From Minisyncoccota bacterium (GTDB taxonomy: Bacteria > Patescibacteriota > Minisyncoccia > Phycocordibacterales > UBA9973): DNA of 64,000 nucleotides. Shown in pieces: positions 2,941 through 22,771 of the stretch. The notes beneath the pieces are model-generated. The model did not search any database. It saw only the letters and a program-made list of their open reading frames with translations, and had not been told where the DNA came from. Each line of letters begins with the position of its first letter. The first letter of the stretch is position 1. The DNA lies in assembly GCA_036405895.1 (NCBI GenBank), contig DASWWS010000001.1, positions 244,468 through 308,467 on the forward strand. Reading direction: 5' to 3'. The position numbers and the translations under genes were made by a program.

Positions 2941-3669
2941 ATGGTGCTCAACGTTGTTGCAACCCCTATTGGGAATCTCAAAGACATCACCCTTCGCGCA
3001 AAAGAGGTACTTGAAAGTGCAACACTGATTCTTGCAGAAGACACGCGAAGCATTAAGAAATTGCTCACGCTTTTGGATATCCCACTAGGAGGGAAGGTAT
3101 ATGTCTCTTCGCATGCACAAAGCACGCAGACAGCCCTACAGAAGGCAATAGAGGCATGTGTTGAGCACGAAACAATTGCTCTGGTGACCGATGCCGGCAC
3201 ACCCGCAATATCCGACCCGGGATCATTGTTTATTCATGAATTCCGCACGGCATATCCACAGGCAACCGTGGTGCCGATTCCTGGGGTCTCTGCAGTAGTT
3301 GCAGCGCTTTCAGTATCCGGCTTTCCCGGCAACCACTTTGAATTTATCGGCTTTGTTCCGCATAAAAAAGGGCGGCAAACACTTTTCAATACTATTGCTC
3401 AAACCGAGCACACGGTGTGCATGTACGAGTCTCCCCACCGCATTCTCAAAACTCTTGAGGCGCTTGCAGAAGTTCTGGGCGACCGGCCAATACTCGTAGG
3501 GCGCGAGATGACAAAAAGCTTTGAAGAATATCCAGTGGGTACGGCAAAAGAGCTCTTGGAGTACTACACTGACAATACAGACAAGGTCCGCGGAGAGTTT
3601 GTCGTTGTTGTTGCGCCTCAGTATATGAGCACTGTGCAGGAGCGCGACGCATCTGATACAATAGAGTAA
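2941..3669 (+). CDS. rsmI: 16S rRNA (cytidine1402-2'-O)-methyltransferase RsmI (tetrapyrrole-methylase fold)
   Basis: N-terminus LNVVATPIGNLKDITLRA...LAEDTR, ...VTDAGTPAISDPG; GAGG SD 6 nt upstream. Confidence 0.85.
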   Translation: MVLNVVATPIGNLKDITLRAKEVLESATLILAEDTRSIKKLLTLLDIPLGGKVYVSSHAQSTQTALQKAIEACVEHETIALVTDAGTPAISDPGSLFIHEFRTAYPQATVVPIPGVSAVVAALSVSGFPGNHFEFIGFVPHKKGRQTLFNTIAQTEHTVCMYESPHRILKTLEALAEVLGDRPILVGREMTKSFEEYPVGTAKELLEYYTDNTDKVRGEFVVVVAPQYMSTVQERDASDTIE

Positions 3670-3857
3670 TGTTGAGCAAGTTACGAACACTCTTTTGGTT
3701 GGGCATTGCCATGCTTTGTATTTCTTTTGTAGGCATTCCTGATGCATGGAAAATGGTGATTGCATTTGGTGTCGGGGCCGTACTCATCGCACTCGCTCTT
3801 GGCCTTCGCCGCGACTACCTAAAGCTTCGATTGAAGCTAAAAGAATATGCACAATAA
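3669..3857 (+). CDS. Small two-helix membrane protein, hypothetical
   Basis: 62 aa, two hydrophobic helices; ATG overlaps rsmI stop. Confidence 0.3.
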   Translation: MLSKLRTLFWLGIAMLCISFVGIPDAWKMVIAFGVGAVLIALALGLRRDYLKLRLKLKEYAQ

Positions 3858-17372: not shown

Positions 17373-17442
17373 CGGTACACTATAACACAAGTTATCCACA
17401 TAGTACCTTGCATTGCATAGTACTGTGTGAAATACTGTAACT

Positions 17443-19447: not shown

Positions 19448-19654
19448 ATGCTACGATGGAGTGTTATTTTCCTTATCATTGCCCTCATTGCCGCTCTCTT
19501 CGGATTCGGTAACGTGGCAGGTGTTGCGATTGAAATCGCTAAAATCATTTTCTTTGTGTTCTTGGTATTGTTCGTTATCACGCTTGTTGCTGGAGGTCTC
19601 TTCGTCAAGAAGGTGAAGAACACCATCGACGACACATTCTCTGCGAACAAATAA
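19448..19654 (+). CDS. UPF0391/DUF1328 small membrane protein
   Basis: MLRWSVIFLIIALIAALFGFGNVAGVAIEIAKIIFFVFLVLF near-canonical DUF1328. Confidence 0.6.
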   Translation: MLRWSVIFLIIALIAALFGFGNVAGVAIEIAKIIFFVFLVLFVITLVAGGLFVKKVKNTIDDTFSANK

Positions 19655-19674
19655 GTTCTCTCTATCTGAAAAAC

Positions 19675-19700
19675 AAAAAACTGCCCATGGGCAGTTTTTT
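19675..19700. terminator. Bidirectional intrinsic terminator
   Basis: aaaaCTGCCcatgGGCAGtttttt. Confidence 0.6.
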
Positions 19701-19715
19701 GTTTCATCAGGTCTA

Positions 19716-20279
19716 TTAGTATTTTCGCATCACTCCGCGGACGATTGCCACAATCTCAAGGCTCTCTGTCGGATAGATGTTTTTAAATGCCTTGTTGGCT
19801 GGTTCGAGCCATACTTTCTCGCCTTTCTGTTTAAAATATTTCATAGTGAACTCGCCATCGACATTTGCAATCACAATGTCGCCGTCTTTTGCGCGGTTCG
19901 TACGCTCGGCTATTACCATGTCTCCGTCTGCAATGTGCGCCTCAATCATAGAGTCTCCGTCCACTTCCAACAAATAGGTGCTCTCGCGCTTGCGCACCAT
20001 GTAGTCTTCGATATTGAGCGTGTCGGTGAGCATCTCGCCGGGTGCCGGCAAGCCCGCTTTCACTAAGCCCGCCATCGGAAGTTCGTCAAAGCTTGCACTT
20101 GGAATAAGGTGCCCGAGCTTGTCTTTCATTACTATCCCCGCTGCGATCATTTTTGTTACAACGCGCGATACTGCATTTTTGGATTTAAAGCCAAAGAGCG
20201 CCATCATTTCCGTATAAGACGGCATGCGGCGTTTATTTTGATAGAACTGTATTACTTTGGCTTGGTAGTCTCCTTCCAT
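19716..20279 (-). CDS. lexA: LexA repressor (S24 peptidase)
   Basis: N-terminal wHTH aligned to LexA; VDGDSMIEAHIADGDMV (Ser) and ...FTMKYF (Lys) catalytic dyad context; start placed at MEGDYQ (alt. ORF-track start 20306). Confidence 0.85.
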   Translation of the reverse strand: MEGDYQAKVIQFYQNKRRMPSYTEMMALFGFKSKNAVSRVVTKMIAAGIVMKDKLGHLIPSASFDELPMAGLVKAGLPAPGEMLTDTLNIEDYMVRKRESTYLLEVDGDSMIEAHIADGDMVIAERTNRAKDGDIVIANVDGEFTMKYFKQKGEKVWLEPANKAFKNIYPTESLEIVAIVRGVMRKY

Positions 20280-20280
20280 A

Positions 20281-20481
20281 CTAGTAGTTTCCGAAAACGC
20301 GAGCAAGGATTCCTTTGCGTGCTCGTGCTCTCATCGCTATACGTCTCATTGTATAACTATTGGATAGCGTAGGAAAGCCAGCAAGTACTGTGTGGGGTGC
20401 AACACGCGGTGCGCTGACTACGCTTCGCAGGCGCTCTATCTCTGAACTCACGAGCTGTTTGAATGGAGTGATTGTTCTCAT
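20281..20481 (-). CDS. Small basic hypothetical protein immediately upstream of lexA
   Basis: 66-aa ORF abutting lexA start; Arg-rich; coding status uncertain. Confidence 0.2.
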   Translation of the reverse strand: MRTITPFKQLVSSEIERLRSVVSAPRVAPHTVLAGFPTLSNSYTMRRIAMRARARKGILARVFGNY

Positions 20482-20493
20482 GGCAATAATTAA

Positions 20494-20682
20494 TTAGTTG
20501 AATGCGAGTAATAGTCGACTAAAAATTGAAGCACTGCTCTGGCGGCGGATTTGTGAAAGGAGCTGTTTGTGCTTTCGGGATTCTTCGGCGTATTTTTGTC
20601 CGCGAAGAATCTTTGCGTCGATTCGCTCGTTGAGACGAGCAAGTTCAAGTTCGATTGCTTTGGTGTATTGTGTGCGAGTCAT
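20494..20682 (-). CDS. Small coiled-coil protein, first gene of putative lexA operon
   Basis: 62 aa, helical heptads; preceded by SOS-box-like palindrome. Confidence 0.35.
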   Translation of the reverse strand: MTRTQYTKAIELELARLNERIDAKILRGQKYAEESRKHKQLLSQIRRQSSASIFSRLLLAFN

Positions 20683-20734
20683 ATACTTCTTTTATCAGTC
20701 GTTATTACTAATGGCGACCTCAAAATAAGTATAG

Positions 20735-20750
20735 GTGAACGAACGTTCAC
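20735..20750. promoter_or_regulatory. Candidate LexA (Cheo-box-like) operator tGAACgaacGTTCa
   Basis: GAAC-N4-GTTC matching CGAACRNRYGTTYC core, ~55 nt upstream of the 62-aa ORF start that heads the lexA operon. Confidence 0.35.
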
Positions 20751-20809
20751 ATGCAAGTGGATTACTCTACTATTTTATAACAGAACATGTTTAAAAGTTC
20801 GTGTCGAGA

Positions 20810-21088
20810 TTAGTAGTTGTAATACGTTGTCGTTGTTGTATTTTGCGGAGTGCTTGTAGTCGTGTAGCTAGAAGAGCTGTCAGAAGAATAGTAGCTCTGG
20901 CTTCGAGAGCTTGATACAGGAGAGATACCGCGCACTACAGTGCCTGCGCTTGCAGGAGCTGTAGTGGTGTACCAGCGGTTAGTAACAACGCCGCGGGTCG
21001 CAACGCGCGGTGAAAAATACACAATAACTGCAAGGATTGCGATGATAAGAAAGAGTGCGAGTAGTGTTCGGTCGGTAGATTCAGTCAT
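20810..21088 (-). CDS. Membrane-anchored Ser/Thr/Tyr-rich small protein
   Basis: N-terminal TM then low-complexity S/T/Y tail. Confidence 0.3.
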   Translation of the reverse strand: MTESTDRTLLALFLIIAILAVIVYFSPRVATRGVVTNRWYTTTAPASAGTVVRGISPVSSSRSQSYYSSDSSSSYTTTSTPQNTTTTTYYNY

Positions 21089-21405: not shown

Positions 21406-22263
21406 TTATTTTCTATATCGATTTAACAAGTATAAAATTTTATTTAATTCAAGCCAAAGATATACATATTCCTTTTCGGTGAAAATTTTAGGTTGCCCCT
21501 CTTGTTCGTGATGAATATTTTTAATTACATAATCAACAAGATTTTCAAATTCTGTATTGTTTCCATCAAATAATATATTCGATAATTCTCTTTTATTGTG
21601 CAGTCTCGGAAAAGTACCATCTCCTTTTTTATAATTATTTTGTAAAGTATTTTCAACTACTTTTTTGAGGTTACCTAGAGATTCATTGTAAAATAGTTTA
21701 TTATTTTTAGTTTTCTCTTTCTTATATAATAGAAAATCTGATACACATTTTTCATATCGTATTTTGTTATCTCCTCCTAGATCATCTCTATTAGAATTAA
21801 CAAGCTCAATACTTGCTTTATCAAGTTTTCTTTTAAACACGTGAGCTTTTTTGTCATAATAAAAATCAATATTGAAGACACTTGAATTTTCAGATTCTAT
21901 TACTAAATCAGTTAATTTAATAACCATAGTCTTCAAGTTGCTTCGTAAATCAAAAGGTACTTGATCGAAATTCCAAACTTCTTTTTTAAGATAAAGTATT
22001 ATATTAGGTAGTAGTTCATTAAAAAATGATAAAAAAATATCTTGTTCTCCACTTAGATACCCTTTCTTTAAATAATCCATTATGGTATGACCACTTCTTC
22101 TTTCGGGGCTATATCTATACTGTGAATTAATATCATCTGTAAGAAGATATGGTAATACTTCAGTTCTTTCGGCACTATCAAGCAGTTCACACGTAACCTC
22201 AAAAAAATTTTGATAGCCGTGTGCAAATTGCTCTAAATTGAGTTTTGGAAATTTATCATCCAT
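21406..22263 (-). CDS. Hypothetical protein, AT-rich island gene B (285 aa)
   Basis: Long clean ORF in ~30% GC DNA; K/N/Y/F-rich; no family motif recognised. Confidence 0.5.
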   Translation of the reverse strand: MDDKFPKLNLEQFAHGYQNFFEVTCELLDSAERTEVLPYLLTDDINSQYRYSPERRSGHTIMDYLKKGYLSGEQDIFLSFFNELLPNIILYLKKEVWNFDQVPFDLRSNLKTMVIKLTDLVIESENSSVFNIDFYYDKKAHVFKRKLDKASIELVNSNRDDLGGDNKIRYEKCVSDFLLYKKEKTKNNKLFYNESLGNLKKVVENTLQNNYKKGDGTFPRLHNKRELSNILFDGNNTEFENLVDYVIKNIHHEQEGQPKIFTEKEYVYLWLELNKILYLLNRYRK

Positions 22264-22297
22264 ACAGATATTTTAGCAAAAGTGATAAATTACACCT

Positions 22298-22771
22298 CTA
22301 TTGATCTTGTTGGTAAACCCACTCATTTAGAATATTTGCGATATTTTCTATTTCTTTTTGAACCCACAATATACAAGCTTCTTTAATATTTGAACAATTC
22401 AATGTCCTCATGGAGTTTGATATTTCTTTTTCGGTTTCATCTGTGAGATACCATAGAGGATTATAGATATTCACCTCGATGATTTTCTCAACAATCTTTT
22501 CTTGGATAAACTTTTTATCTGCTTCATACCCATAATATTCATATAAATTAAACACTAATTGAGCTGCGTGTGCCCATAAATCCTTACTTTGCTCACCACG
22601 AAGCCCAAGAATCATCTCGAGTTCATTTCCAGGAGTAGTCTCTATTTTGTGTGTTTTGAAAAGTTTTATAAGACTTCCCGATGGATTTTTAAATAAGGTA
22701 TAACCTTCTTTACTATTCTGATATGCATCTCTGAATTGGTTAATCCTATTTGTTTTATCTAGTGTAGACAT
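22298..22771 (-). CDS. Hypothetical protein, AT-rich island gene A (157 aa)
   Basis: Clean ORF 34 nt upstream of gene B, same strand; TGtTATAAT-like -10 about 8 nt before ATG. Confidence 0.5.
   Translation of the reverse strand: MSTLDKTNRINQFRDAYQNSKEGYTLFKNPSGSLIKLFKTHKIETTPGNELEMILGLRGEQSKDLWAHAAQLVFNLYEYYGYEADKKFIQEKIVEKIIEVNIYNPLWYLTDETEKEISNSMRTLNCSNIKEACILWVQKEIENIANILNEWVYQQDQ

What the first reader, a model, noticed from the sequence alone, without database searches (positions are those of the whole stretch)
19716..20760. lexA operon preceded by two tiny ORFs and a Cheo-box-like operator (tGAACgaacGTTCa)
Seen: three consecutive minus-strand ORFs run 62 aa (coiled-coil), 66 aa (Arg-rich) and LexA, with 12-nt and ~1-nt spacers. 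The palindromic core GAAC-N4-GTTC at 20737-20748 lies ~55 nt upstream of the first ORF. Established: Gram-positive-type LexA boxes are CGAACRNRYGTTYC, and LexA autoregulates. Inference: the small upstream genes would be SOS-induced, by analogy with small division inhibitors such as YneA or SulA that are LexA-controlled. Their sequences are not recognisable to me.
Basis: partly seen in the sequence, partly recalled or inferred. Interest (0 to 1): 0.55.

Follow-up and report, generated by a model that had tools for sequence, protein, structure and literature searches.

The report
LexA operon with conserved small proteins
An uncultured Patescibacteria (CPR) bacterium keeps its DNA-damage repressor gene lexA in one self-repressed operon with a small, conserved, uncharacterised helical protein, and the operon promoter carries a LexA operator and, in most relatives, a perfect DnaA box.

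Summary
On the minus strand lie ORF62 (20494-20682), ORF66 (20281-20481) and lexA (19716-20279), with 12-nt and 1-nt spacers. A strong terminator follows. The palindrome is really 16 bp, GTGAAC-N4-GTTCAC (20735-20750). It fills the 17-nt spacer between TTGCAT (-35) and TATACT (-10).

The protein passes the NCBIfam LexA equivalog cut-off and keeps the Ala-Gly cleavage site and the Ser/Lys dyad.

Comparative evidence decides the case:
- 74 of 80 related Paceibacteria loci carry an ORF62 homolog next to lexA.
- The 16-mer sits in the promoter spacer in 72 of 72 readable promoters.
- It occurs nowhere else in about 590 kb of those loci.

ORF62 founds an unannotated family (at least 354 representatives at 50% identity). 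The proteins are 60-70 aa, basic helical hairpins with an aromatic tail and no transmembrane segment. ORF66 is confined to a subclade but is under purifying selection (dN/dS 0.11).

I also found a canonical DnaA box, TTATCCACA, upstream of the -35 in most relatives. Its spacing to the LexA box falls into classes about 10 bp apart. In this window the box is degenerate.

Autoregulation and SOS induction of the small genes are well supported by inference. Their function is untested. A damage/replication checkpoint effector is my preferred reading, and a LexA cofactor is the main rival.

The parts
20756..20764 (-). Degenerate DnaA-box-like 9-mer TAATCCACT (7 of 9 matches to TTATCCACA). It abuts and overlaps the first base of the -35 hexamer.
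   Evidence: In relatives the same position class holds a perfect TTATCCACA: 63 of 72 promoters are exact and 5 more have one mismatch. Of 70 exact copies in 590 kb of loci, 64 lie at this promoter, against about 7 expected overall. Only this window and L001 have the weakened form.
20751..20756 (-). -35 hexamer TTGCAT
   Evidence: Read directly. In 72 relatives this position is TTGCAT (22), TTGACT (18), TTGACA (18) or a near variant. The consensus scanner missed it because TTGCAT matches only 3 of 6 positions of TTGACA.
20735..20750 (.). LexA operator: 16-bp palindrome GTGAAC-N4-GTTCAC (plus strand GTGAACGAACGTTCAC), occupying the promoter spacer
   Evidence: this window. (relatives): all 12 specified positions are invariant except A to T at position 4 in 3 loci, and the N4 is mostly G-N-N-C. 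It is the only occurrence of the 16-mer in 590 kb of related loci. No other promoter-context site with up to 2 mismatches exists in about 665 kb.
20728..20733 (-). -10 hexamer TATACT, 17 nt from the -35
   Evidence: In relatives it is TATACT (56), TATAAT (12) or another variant (4). The spacer is 17 nt in 65 loci and 18 nt in 7.
20683..20721 (-). Inferred short 5' untranslated leader (about 39 nt if transcription starts about 7 nt after the -10). It contains GGTCGCC.
   Evidence: Inferred from the promoter geometry. [AG]GTCG lies 12-17 nt after the box in 24 of 72 relatives. No Shine-Dalgarno-like 4-mer was found in 71 of 72. No Rfam family reached its gathering score; the only weak matches lie on the terminator hairpin downstream of lexA.
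20494..20682 (-). ORF62: first gene of the operon, a 62-aa basic helical-hairpin protein that founds an unannotated family
   Evidence: - Homologs lie next to lexA in 74 of 80 genome loci and in 25 metagenome loci.
- The family has 478 clusters and 354 representatives at 50% identity, all 42-108 aa and stand-alone.
- It has no Pfam, NCBIfam, PHROG, PADLOC or PDB-sequence match.
- The AF2 model has pLDDT 88.5, with helices at 3-27 and 32-61.
- dN/dS is 0.11.
20281..20481 (-). ORF66: second small gene, 66 aa and Arg-rich, restricted to the subclade closest to this window
   Evidence: - An ORF of 55-71 aa fills the roughly 200-nt gap in all 14 loci that have the gap. They share the N-terminal motif TPF(Q/K)xxLxxE(L/I/M)xRL(E/Q).
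- About 20 clusters exist in the protein collection, all named 'hypothetical'.
- dN/dS is 0.11 against L001.
- Only the N-terminal helix (6-23) is confidently modelled.
- There is a weak, in-register profile match to the ORF62 family: hhalign probability 21%, E = 0.001.
19716..20279 (-). lexA: 187-aa LexA repressor with cleavage site Ala75-Gly76, Ser110 and Lys147
   Evidence: - TIGR00498 lexA equivalog scores 118.9 bits against a cut-off of 110.95.
- Peptidase_S24 scores 2.8e-26.
- PDB hits are LexA proteins, the best being 3k2z at 2.5e-21 over residues 12-186.
- Orthologs in 80 loci are 43-98% identical.
19666..19710 (.). Bidirectional intrinsic terminator (A-run, GC stem, T-run) between lexA and the convergent DUF1328 gene
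   Evidence: RNA fold of -25.3 kcal/mol, z = -7.2, with 0 of 200 shuffles folding as well. The DUF1328 gene is at 19448-19654 on the plus strand.

Best explanation
This is the autoregulated SOS operon of a Paceibacteria ('Nomurabacteria'-type, CPR/Patescibacteria) genome.

**Shown by sequence and comparison**
- One sigma-70-type promoter (TTGCAT, 17 nt, TATACT) drives ORF62, ORF66 and lexA, and a strong terminator ends the unit.
- The 17-nt spacer is filled by the palindrome GTGAAC-N4-GTTCAC.
- The palindrome, its position and the ORF62-lexA pairing are conserved across the clade.

**Inferred from established LexA biology**
- A LexA dimer bound to the palindrome occludes RNA polymerase.
- After DNA damage, the RecA filament stimulates LexA self-cleavage at Ala75-Gly76, catalysed by Ser110 and Lys147.
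- The promoter then opens and produces a burst of ORF62 and ORF66 together with new LexA, which shuts the operon again.

**Inferred second input**
- A canonical DnaA box (TTATCCACA) lies upstream of the -35 in most relatives, in spacing classes about 10 bp apart. It is degenerate in this window. This suggests the replication initiator also acts on this promoter.

**Hypothesis (about 0.4)**
- ORF62 is the effector of this circuit. It would be a small, basic helical hairpin with a basic-then-aromatic C-terminal tail. The tail would tether it peripherally to the membrane or mark it for turnover. The protein would delay division or replication while damage is repaired.
- It would work like SulA, YneA or Sda without being related to any of them.
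- ORF66 is probably a diverged tandem copy.

The confidence of 0.75 applies to the operon architecture, autoregulation and SOS induction of the small genes, not to the effector hypothesis.
For: **Operon anatomy**
- Gene order, spacers and promoter were read directly.
- The terminator folds at -25.3 kcal/mol, z = -7.2.

**LexA identity**
- Supported.

**Operator**
- The 16-mer is perfect in 70 of 75 promoters, with GTGTAC in 3 more.
- It is always inside a 17-18 nt spacer, in 72 of 72 cases.
- It is absent elsewhere in 590 kb of related loci.
- In a metagenome scan for GTGAACGNNCGTTCAC, 28 of 33 promoter-context sites adjoin ORF62 and/or lexA. Three of the other five lie within about 300 nt of a contig end.

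**Gene pair**
- ORF62 homologs lie next to lexA in 74 of 80 loci. The six exceptions are three truncated contigs, one Smithella contig and the two most divergent LexAs.
- Most pairs are 0-17 nt apart or overlap by 4-8 nt.
- The pair persists with different neighbours (L201).
- It persists even in the reversed order lexA-ORF62 under the same promoter (L129).

**Coding status**
- dN/dS is 0.11 for ORF62, 0.11 for ORF66 and 0.014 for lexA.
- ORF62 has invariant residues N18, I21, D22, K24, I25, G28, Y31, E34, H38, L41, L42 and R46.

**ORF62 structure**
- The model is a helical hairpin with pLDDT 88.5.
- The median net charge is +8. The tail has no uncharged run longer than 9 residues. Its hydrophobic moment is in the range of MinD/FtsA-type tails.

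**DnaA box**
- 64 of 70 genomic copies are at this promoter.
- Spacing to the LexA box is 7 nt (n = 6), 13-16 nt (n = 55) or 24-26 nt (n = 7).

**Precedent**
- Unrelated SOS division inhibitors are typically found next to lexA (PMC6851548).
Against: **No functional data**
- There is no expression, binding or cleavage data. Everything functional is inferred.

**Regulon untested**
- No other SOS gene could be examined. recA and dnaA are absent from the window and from 1.3 Mb of loci.
- No second near-consensus box was found in about 665 kb. The box is therefore not yet shown to define a regulon.

**Against the effector hypothesis**
- ORF62 lacks the transmembrane segment and LysM domain of YneA, SosA and ChiZ.
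- Fold searches return only generic hairpins, with E above 2.
- Tight translational coupling with lexA would suit a stoichiometric LexA partner as well as it suits an effector.
- One relative (L081) has a broken ORF62 with an intact promoter and lexA.

**Against DnaA input in this window**
- The DnaA box matches only 7 of 9 positions here.
- DnaA-box specificity has not been tested for CPR DnaA.

**Prior literature**
- I could not read the one paper on the Patescibacteria SOS network.
Confidence: 0.75

Rival explanations
1. ORF62 is not a downstream effector but an accessory subunit of the repressor system. In this reading it is a small protein made in fixed ratio with LexA. It would strengthen LexA's DNA binding, modulate its RecA-dependent self-cleavage, or modulate RecA itself. 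It would work like phage GIL01 gp7 or Acinetobacter DdrR.
For: - Co-occurrence with lexA is strict, and the genes are tightly spaced or overlapping.
- The pair is kept in either gene order, while neighbouring genes vary.
- ORF62 is strongly basic, median net charge +8, which is compatible with contacting DNA.
- Precedents exist. gp7 binds LexA, enhances DNA binding and inhibits cleavage (PMC4551915). DdrR assists UmuDAb binding (PMC11332147, PMC7273328).
Against: - There is no sequence or fold similarity to any solved protein: no PDB chain at E up to 10, and Foldseek E above 2.
- A hydrophobic, aromatic C-terminal tail is not an obvious feature of a DNA-bound cofactor.
- A relative with a broken ORF62 keeps an intact operator and lexA.
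- LexA proteins with the same operator work without ORF62 in other lineages (L094, L112, L158, L170, L186).
Confidence: 0.3
2. The conserved TTATCCACA upstream of the -35 is not a DnaA site. It would instead be the site of another regulator, or a promoter-specific upstream element.
For: - No dnaA gene or oriC of this clade could be fetched to check which box its DnaA uses.
- There is a single box rather than a cluster.
- The box is degenerate in this window and in L001.
Against: - The 9-mer equals the canonical DnaA-box consensus. This is established knowledge for E. coli and B. subtilis.
- It is exact in 63 of 72 promoters.
- It is not a general promoter element: only about 6 copies lie elsewhere in 590 kb, which is the chance level.
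- It tolerates inversion (L118) and a TTGTCCACA variant (L129), as transcription-factor sites do.
Confidence: 0.25
3. The small ORFs are not functional proteins. They would be chance ORFs, or upstream ORFs that matter only for translational coupling of lexA.
For: - There is no Shine-Dalgarno-like sequence before ORF62 in 71 of 72 loci.
- ORF66 is poorly conserved outside its N-terminus.
- L081 tolerates a disrupted ORF62.
Against: - dN/dS is 0.11 for both ORFs.
- ORF62 has 15 invariant columns across 45 diverse homologs.
- At least 354 representative sequences share similar length.
- The structure prediction is confident.
- ORF66-type ORFs are kept open in 14 of 14 loci.
Confidence: 0.03
4. 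The S24 protein is the repressor of a prophage or mobile element rather than the cellular LexA, and the palindrome is that element's operator.
For: - A low-GC stretch with two orphan ORFs lies 0.7 kb upstream, at 21406-22771.
- S24 repressors are common in phages.
Against: - The protein passes the LexA equivalog cut-off, and its best solved relatives are cellular LexAs.
- It occurs as a single conserved locus in 80 genomes, with housekeeping neighbours that differ between genomes.
- ORF62 family members have no consistent PHROG match: one of 35 members, E = 0.0053.
- The low-GC ORFs are not conserved next to the operon in relatives.
Confidence: 0.02

Closest known systems
LexA with the Gram-positive-type SOS box (Bacillus subtilis DinR/LexA 'Cheo box' CGAACRNRYGTTYC; Thermotoga and Mycobacterium LexA)
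   Same: - It is a canonical LexA, with a winged-helix N-terminal domain and an S24 domain with the Ala-Gly site and the Ser/Lys dyad.
- It has the GAAC-N4-GTTC palindrome core in its own promoter, so autoregulation is expected.
   Different: - The flanks are T/GT rather than C (GTGAAC...GTTCAC), giving a 16-bp site.
- There is a single operator placed exactly in the -35/-10 spacer.
- lexA is the last gene of a three-gene (elsewhere two-gene) operon.
- The protein is short, at 187 aa. Its N-terminal domain scores only E = 0.24 against Pfam LexA_DNA_bind.
lexA-linked SOS cell-division inhibitors of Gram-positive bacteria (YneA, SosA, ChiZ/Rv2719c, DivS)
   Same: - They are small proteins with no mutual homology.
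- They are encoded next to lexA and controlled by the same LexA operator region (PMC6851548).
   Different: - Those genes are divergently transcribed from lexA. They have one transmembrane segment and often a LysM domain.
- ORF62 is co-transcribed with lexA. It has no transmembrane segment and no LysM domain, and is a soluble helical hairpin with a short aromatic tail.
Sda of Bacillus subtilis (DnaA-controlled replication/damage checkpoint protein).
   Same: - It is a small protein of about 50 aa with a helical-hairpin fold.
- Its promoter carries DnaA boxes, and it is induced by replication stress.
- It is short-lived through a C-terminal degradation signal.
   Different: - No sequence or significant fold match was found.
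- Sda targets the sporulation kinase KinA, which CPR bacteria lack.
- Sda is not co-transcribed with lexA.
Small cofactors of LexA-type repressors: phage GIL01 gp7 and Acinetobacter DdrR
   Same: They are small proteins genetically tied to a LexA or UmuDAb repressor, and they change its DNA binding or cleavage (PMC4551915, PMC11332147).
   Different: - No homology was found.
- gp7 is phage-encoded, and DdrR is divergently transcribed from umuDAb.
- An ORF62-LexA interaction is untested.
SOS network of the Patescibacteria (Sanchez-Osuna, Barbe & Erill 2017, Environ Microbiol 19:3465; cited as ref. 9 in PMC8565304)
   Same: It concerns the same superphylum and the same regulator. A LexA-binding motif and regulon were derived there by comparative genomics.
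   Different: The paper is not in the library. I cannot say whether it already reports this 16-mer, the small gene upstream of lexA, or the DnaA box.

Membership tests
LexA repressor (TIGR00498 / S24 peptidase with winged-helix N-domain) | Scores above the curated equivalog cut-off of the LexA model | tested here: met
   TIGR00498 scores 118.9 bits against a cut-off of 110.95, covering residues 14-186.
LexA repressor (TIGR00498 / S24 peptidase with winged-helix N-domain) | C-terminal S24 domain with the Ala-Gly self-cleavage site and the Ser/Lys catalytic dyad | tested here: met
   Peptidase_S24 scores E = 2.8e-26. The alignment to 3k2z places VKA75-G76LP, GDS110M and TMK147 opposite the LexA motifs.
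LexA repressor (TIGR00498 / S24 peptidase with winged-helix N-domain) | N-terminal LexA-type winged-helix DNA-binding domain (PF01726) | tested here: inconclusive
   Pfam LexA_DNA_bind scores only E = 0.24, or 11.7 bits against a cut-off of 23.7. However, full-length alignments to T. maritima LexA start at residue 12 and to TIGR00498 at residue 14.
LexA repressor (TIGR00498 / S24 peptidase with winged-helix N-domain) | Palindromic operator in its own promoter (autoregulation) | tested here: met
   The 16-bp palindrome lies in the promoter spacer and is conserved in 72 of 72 relatives. Binding itself was not tested.
LexA repressor (TIGR00498 / S24 peptidase with winged-helix N-domain) | RecA-stimulated self-cleavage after DNA damage | not testable with these tools
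   This needs biochemistry. No recA gene was found in the fetched DNA.
Gram-positive-type SOS box (Cheo box CGAACRNRYGTTYC) | GAAC-N4-GTTC palindromic core | tested here: met
   GAACGAACGTTC at 20737-20748. The core is invariant in relatives, apart from GTAC in one half-site in 3 loci.
Gram-positive-type SOS box (Cheo box CGAACRNRYGTTYC) | C and G flanking the core (CGAAC...GTTCG) | tested here: not met
   The flanks are invariably GT and AC (GTGAAC...GTTCAC) in 72 of 72 promoters. It is a variant of the Cheo box, not the Bacillus consensus.
lexA-linked SOS division inhibitors (YneA/SosA/ChiZ/DivS) | Small gene next to lexA under a LexA box | tested here: met
   ORF62 and ORF66 share lexA's promoter and operator. 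The orientation is co-directional, not divergent as in those systems (PMC6851548).
lexA-linked SOS division inhibitors (YneA/SosA/ChiZ/DivS) | Single transmembrane segment (with or without a LysM domain) | tested here: not met
   The longest run without charged or polar residues in the tail has a median of 6 and a maximum of 9 residues across 62 homologs. No LysM or any other Pfam domain was found.
lexA-linked SOS division inhibitors (YneA/SosA/ChiZ/DivS) | Blocks cell division when induced | not testable with these tools
   This needs expression experiments.
DnaA box | 9-mer TTATCCACA (TTATNCACA) | tested here: inconclusive
   In this window the match is 7 of 9 (TAATCCACT, 20756-20764). In relatives it is exact in 63 of 72 promoters, with one mismatch in 5. 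It is specific to this promoter.
DnaA box | Bound by the organism's DnaA | not testable with these tools
   No dnaA or oriC locus of the clade could be fetched.
SulA / Sda / DinI / other named SOS small proteins | Sequence membership in the curated family model | tested here: not met
   No consistent Pfam hit among 35 family members at E up to 0.1. No NCBIfam hit. Among PHROGs, one of 35 members matched, at E = 0.0053. No PADLOC hit.

The most novel reading that the evidence does not exclude
In Paceibacteria the SOS regulon may have shrunk to little more than this one operon. ORF62 would then be the principal output of DNA-damage signalling. It would be a previously unrecognised checkpoint protein gated by both LexA (damage) and DnaA (replication status). 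It would act on division or replication through a helical-hairpin head and a membrane-seeking or degron-like aromatic tail. The evidence does not exclude this. No second near-consensus box appears in about 665 kb of Paceibacteria DNA. Among perfect boxes in promoter context in metagenomes, essentially all belong to this operon.
Probability: 0.2. Interest if true: 0.7.

Novelty: new variant of a known kind. Interest (0 to 1): 0.5.

Why it matters
CPR/Patescibacteria are a large, mostly uncultured part of bacterial diversity. Their genomes are very small, and almost nothing is known about how they couple DNA damage, replication and division.

- A LexA-autoregulated lexA gene with a GAAC-N4-GTTC-type box is expected and ordinary.
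- What is not ordinary is a small protein family, absent from curated libraries, that is locked to lexA across the clade.
- Nor is a promoter that combines a LexA operator with a canonical DnaA box whose spacing falls into classes about one helical turn apart.

Together these give a concrete, testable candidate for a CPR checkpoint factor or LexA cofactor. They also give a compact promoter in which damage and replication signals may be integrated.

Tried and rejected
1. **Other LexA boxes in the window.** The two other GAAC-N4-GTTC sites lie inside murG (28609) and upstream of rpsI (57823). They lack the flanks and occur at chance frequency. I rejected them as operators.
2. **Upstream GAAC-N10-GTTC at 20785-20802.** It is not conserved even in L001. 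Rejected.
3. **Regulon test.**
None was found.
   - The single metagenome scan for GTGAACGNNCGTTCAC returned mostly lexA operons plus unrelated high-GC sites.
   - Extending the window by exact-protein look-up gave only 2.6 kb of new DNA.
4. **Naming ORF62.** Pfam, NCBIfam, PHROGs, PADLOC, a PDB profile search, and Foldseek against PDB and BFVD gave nothing significant. The afdb50 library was unavailable.
5. **ORF66 as a paralog of ORF62.** hhalign gives only 21% probability, although the match is in register from the first residue. It is suggestive but not shown.
6. **C-terminal tail as a beta-clamp-binding motif (QL[SD]LF).** The tails vary (..PQFSNI..FQF..LLAFN) and show no consistent motif. 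Not supported.
7. **Tail as a transmembrane anchor.** Rejected.
8. **TTATCCACA as a general promoter element or an origin.** Rejected. It is a single copy, specific to this promoter.
9. **Rfam families in the leader.** None reached its gathering score.
10. **Reading the 2017 Patescibacteria SOS paper.** It is not held in the library.
11. **A fused ORF62-LexA structure prediction.** I did not attempt it.
Full report
**1. What is in the sequence**

On the minus strand of the window there are three consecutive genes:
- ORF62, 20494-20682, 62 aa.
- ORF66, 20281-20481, 66 aa with 10 Arg, after a 12-nt spacer.
- An S24-family gene, after a 1-nt spacer. Its ATG is at 20279 and its stop at 19716 (187 aa).

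A hairpin at 19666-19710 follows directly. It consists of an A-run, a GC stem and a T-run. It folds at -25.3 kcal/mol (z = -7.2) and separates the unit from a convergent DUF1328 gene.

Upstream of ORF62 the minus strand reads TAATCCAC-TTGCAT-GTGAACGTTCGTTCAC-c-TATACT.
- That palindrome fills the 17-nt spacer between a -35-like TTGCAT (20751-20756) and a -10 TATACT (20728-20733).
- The consensus scanner missed this promoter only because TTGCAT matches 3 of 6 positions of TTGACA.

**2. Is it more than chance?**

Inside the window alone the evidence is modest.
- The 12-mer core occurs 3 times against 1.1 expected.
- The 16-mer occurs once, allowing up to 1 mismatch, against 0.10 expected.
- The other two core matches lie inside murG and upstream of rpsI, and they lack the flanks.

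The decisive evidence is comparative. A scan of one genome per species with the LexA protein returned 80 loci, all but one from Patescibacteria assemblies (labelled Paceibacteria, Nomurabacteria, Minisyncoccia and the like); the exception, L076, is a Smithella contig. LexA identity ranges from 43% to 98%. This identifies the window as CPR DNA.
- In 72 readable promoters, all 12 specified positions of GTGAAC-N4-GTTCAC are invariant, except for A to T at one position in 3 loci.
- The N4 is mostly G-N-N-C.
- The box always lies between TTG(A/C)(A/C)(T/A) and TATA(C/A)T. The spacer is 17 nt in 65 loci and 18 nt in 7.
- In 590 kb of these loci the 16-mer occurs nowhere else.
- In about 665 kb there is no other promoter-context site with up to 2 mismatches.

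**3. The repressor**

The 187-aa protein is a LexA.
- It passes the curated NCBIfam LexA equivalog cut-off: 118.9 bits against 110.95.
- It has an S24 domain at E = 2.8e-26.
- It aligns over residues 12-186 with Thermotoga maritima LexA (3k2z, E = 2.5e-21). All further strong PDB matches are LexA or UmuD.
- The cleavage site (VKA75-G76LP), the catalytic Ser110 (GDSM) and Lys147 (TMKYF) are present.
- Only the Pfam model of the N-terminal domain scores poorly (E = 0.24).

A LexA dimer on a palindrome inside the promoter spacer would exclude RNA polymerase. Self-repression, and induction after RecA-stimulated cleavage, follow from established LexA biology. They are inferred here, not shown.

**4. 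ORF62**

A profile built from tblastn hits finds a homolog next to lexA in 74 of 80 loci. The six exceptions are:
- three contigs truncated upstream (L002, L007, L047; L007 still shows the C-terminal end of the gene);
- a Smithella contig (L076);
- the two most divergent LexAs (L078, L080).

In most loci the two genes are 0-17 nt apart or overlap by 4-8 nt. The pair survives changes of neighbourhood (L201). It also survives inversion of gene order: in L129 the same promoter drives lexA followed 8 nt later by the ORF62 homolog.

The family is sizeable and unannotated.
- It comprises 478 clusters at 90% identity.
- It has 354 representatives at 50% identity with E up to 0.001. The 150 best-scoring representatives listed are stand-alone proteins of 42-108 aa.
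- Every source that names a member calls it 'hypothetical'.
- There is no match in Pfam, NCBIfam, PADLOC or PDB sequences, and none of note in PHROGs, where one of 35 members matched at E = 0.0053.

Its features are as follows.
- Fifteen alignment columns are invariant across 45 diverse members: M1, Y6, K8, N18, I21, D22, K24, I25, G28, Y31, E34, H38, L41, L42 and R46.
- AlphaFold2 predicts a helical hairpin with helices at 3-27 and 32-61 (pLDDT 88.5).
- Foldseek against the PDB and against viral models returns only generic hairpins, with E above 2.
- The proteins are basic, with a median net charge of +8.
- They end in a basic stretch followed by an aromatic or hydrophobic tail, for example RRGFFSRFFPxF. 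In the window the tail is SIFSRLLLAFN.
- The tail has no uncharged run longer than 9 residues, so it is not a transmembrane anchor.
- dN/dS against the closest relative is 0.11.

**5. ORF66**

Only the roughly 15 loci closest to the window have a gap of about 200 nt between ORF62 and lexA.
- In all 14 loci with a gap of 177-223 nt, an ORF of 55-71 aa fills the gap.
- These ORFs share an N-terminal motif, TPF(Q/K)xxLxxE(L/I/M)xRL(E/Q), followed by a variable middle, a basic patch and a hydrophobic tail.
- The protein collection holds about 20 clusters, all named 'hypothetical'.
- dN/dS against L001 is 0.11, with 25.5 synonymous and 12.5 non-synonymous differences.
- Only the N-terminal helix is modelled with confidence.
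- The overall layout resembles ORF62. hhalign aligns the two families in register from residue 1, but at only 21% probability.

A diverged tandem duplicate is plausible but not shown.

**6. An unexpected second element**

Upstream of the -35 of the operon promoter, 63 of 72 relatives have an exact TTATCCACA, and 5 more have one mismatch. This 9-mer is the canonical DnaA-box consensus, which is established knowledge.
- It is not a general promoter feature. Of 70 exact copies in 590 kb, 64 lie at this promoter. The remainder match the chance expectation of about 7. One of them lies within 16S rRNA.
- The window itself has only 2 exact copies in 64 kb, neither of them here.
- The distance from the box to the LexA operator falls into three classes: 7 nt (n = 6), 13-16 nt (n = 55) and 24-26 nt (n = 7). 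These are roughly one helical turn apart. This argues for a protein that must sit on a fixed face relative to RNA polymerase or LexA.
- One metagenomic locus has the box inverted (L118), and one has TTGTCCACA (L129).
- In this window and its nearest relative L001 the element is weakened to TAATCCACT and abuts the -35.
- I could not fetch a dnaA or oriC locus of the clade. DnaA binding remains an inference.

**7. The regulon question**

I could not run it.
- No recA, uvr or polymerase gene lies in the window or in the fetched loci.
- A metagenome scan for GTGAACGNNCGTTCAC gave 121 sites.
- Of the 33 sites in a promoter context, 28 adjoin ORF62 and/or lexA.
- Three of the remaining five lie within about 300 nt of a contig end.
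- The other two are tandem double boxes on higher-GC contigs that are not CPR-like.
- The same 16-mer also precedes lexA genes that lack ORF62 on higher-GC contigs (L094, L112, L158, L170, L186). The operator type is therefore not CPR-specific, whereas ORF62 is.

The absence of any second good box in about 665 kb of Paceibacteria DNA hints at a very small regulon. The sample is all lexA neighbourhoods, however, so this is not a genome-wide test.

**8. How it most likely works**

*Shown by sequence and comparison:* one promoter, one operator in its spacer, two (elsewhere one) conserved small genes plus lexA, and one terminator.

*Inferred:* LexA represses the operon. DNA damage relieves repression and yields ORF62, ORF66 and fresh LexA, which resets the circuit. 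DnaA provides a second input in most members of the clade.

*Hypothesis:* ORF62 is the effector, a short-lived or membrane-peripheral checkpoint protein.
- This fits the precedent that unrelated small SOS division inhibitors sit next to lexA (PMC6851548).
- It also fits the Sda paradigm of a DnaA-controlled helical-hairpin checkpoint protein, which I cite from my own knowledge.
- ORF62 fails the defining features of the YneA/SosA/ChiZ group: it has no transmembrane segment and no LysM domain. It is not related to any named family.

*Main rival (about 0.3):* ORF62 is a LexA or RecA cofactor, like GIL01 gp7 or Acinetobacter DdrR (PMC4551915, PMC11332147). The tight coupling and strict co-occurrence with lexA fit this equally well.

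A relative with a broken ORF62 but an intact promoter and lexA (L081) shows that the small gene is dispensable at least sometimes.

**9. Novelty and verdict**

- A LexA that represses its own gene through a GAAC-N4-GTTC-type box is a known kind of system. An SOS study of Patescibacteria exists (Sanchez-Osuna et al. 2017) but could not be read.
- The lexA-locked, unannotated helical-hairpin family is not in any curated library I could search. Neither is its lineage-specific companion, nor the promoter that combines a LexA operator with a phased DnaA box.
- I rate the finding a new variant of a known kind.
- Interest is moderate (0.5). It would be higher if ORF62 proves to be the main output of a minimal SOS response.

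Noticed in passing
window 20756-20764; relatives e.g. L003 about 3531-3539, L025 about 3699-3707: A canonical DnaA box, TTATCCACA, is conserved upstream of the -35 of the lexA-operon promoter. It is exact in 63 of 72 relatives, and 64 of the 70 copies in 590 kb lie at this promoter. Its spacing to the LexA box falls into classes of 7, 13-16 and 24-26 nt. It is degenerate (TAATCCACT) in this window.
   Followed up: yes
L129 2920-3760 (minus strand): The gene order is reversed. The same LexA-box promoter, with TTGTCCACA upstream, drives lexA first and the ORF62 homolog 8 nt downstream. The pairing is thus kept although the order changed.
   Followed up: yes
L081 415-1210: The ORF62 homolog is disrupted. 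Its N-terminal and C-terminal parts lie in different frames and the middle is missing. The DnaA box, LexA box and lexA are intact. This is either a pseudogene or an assembly error.
   Followed up: partly
L078 about 3625-3660; L016 3715, L027 3687, L034 47: A divergent LexA (43% identity, no ORF62) has a different palindrome in the same spacer position: TTGACT-TCGTACGATAGTACGAa-TATACT. Three closer relatives carry a GTGTAC half-site. This looks like operator drift from GAAC towards GTAC.
   Followed up: no
L094, L112, L158, L170, L186; L106 10802-10842; L162 about 1009-1050: The same GTGAAC-N4-GTTCAC operator precedes lexA genes that lack ORF62 on higher-GC (0.46-0.61) metagenome contigs. Two such contigs carry tandem double boxes upstream of unidentified genes.
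   Followed up: no
5' leaders of ORF62 homologs in 72 loci; window 20683-20721: There is no Shine-Dalgarno-like 4-mer within 18 nt of the start codon in 71 of 72 loci. In L033, L039 and L069 the ATG lies about 6 nt after the -10, so the mRNA is probably leaderless. An [AG]GTCG motif lies 12-17 nt after the box in 24 of 72 loci.
   Followed up: partly
window 21406-22771: Two minus-strand ORFs (285 and 157 aa) lie in a low-GC stretch (0.37-0.40, against about 0.47 around it). They have no Pfam, NCBIfam or PADLOC match. This may be an acquired island just upstream of the operon.
   Followed up: partly
window 20810-21088: A 92-aa minus-strand ORF directly upstream of the promoter has one hydrophobic N-terminal segment and a Ser/Thr/Tyr-rich tail. 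It is conserved only in L001. It is not part of the operon.
   Followed up: no
L118 about 2190-2236: The DnaA box occurs in inverted orientation (TGTGGATAA) upstream of the -35 of an otherwise typical ORF62-lexA promoter.
   Followed up: no
window 17392-17400 and 1866-1874: These are the only two exact TTATCCACA copies in the window. One lies between the divergent ABC-F gene and the PadR/PspC-domain genes. Their significance is unknown, and the count is at chance level.
   Followed up: no
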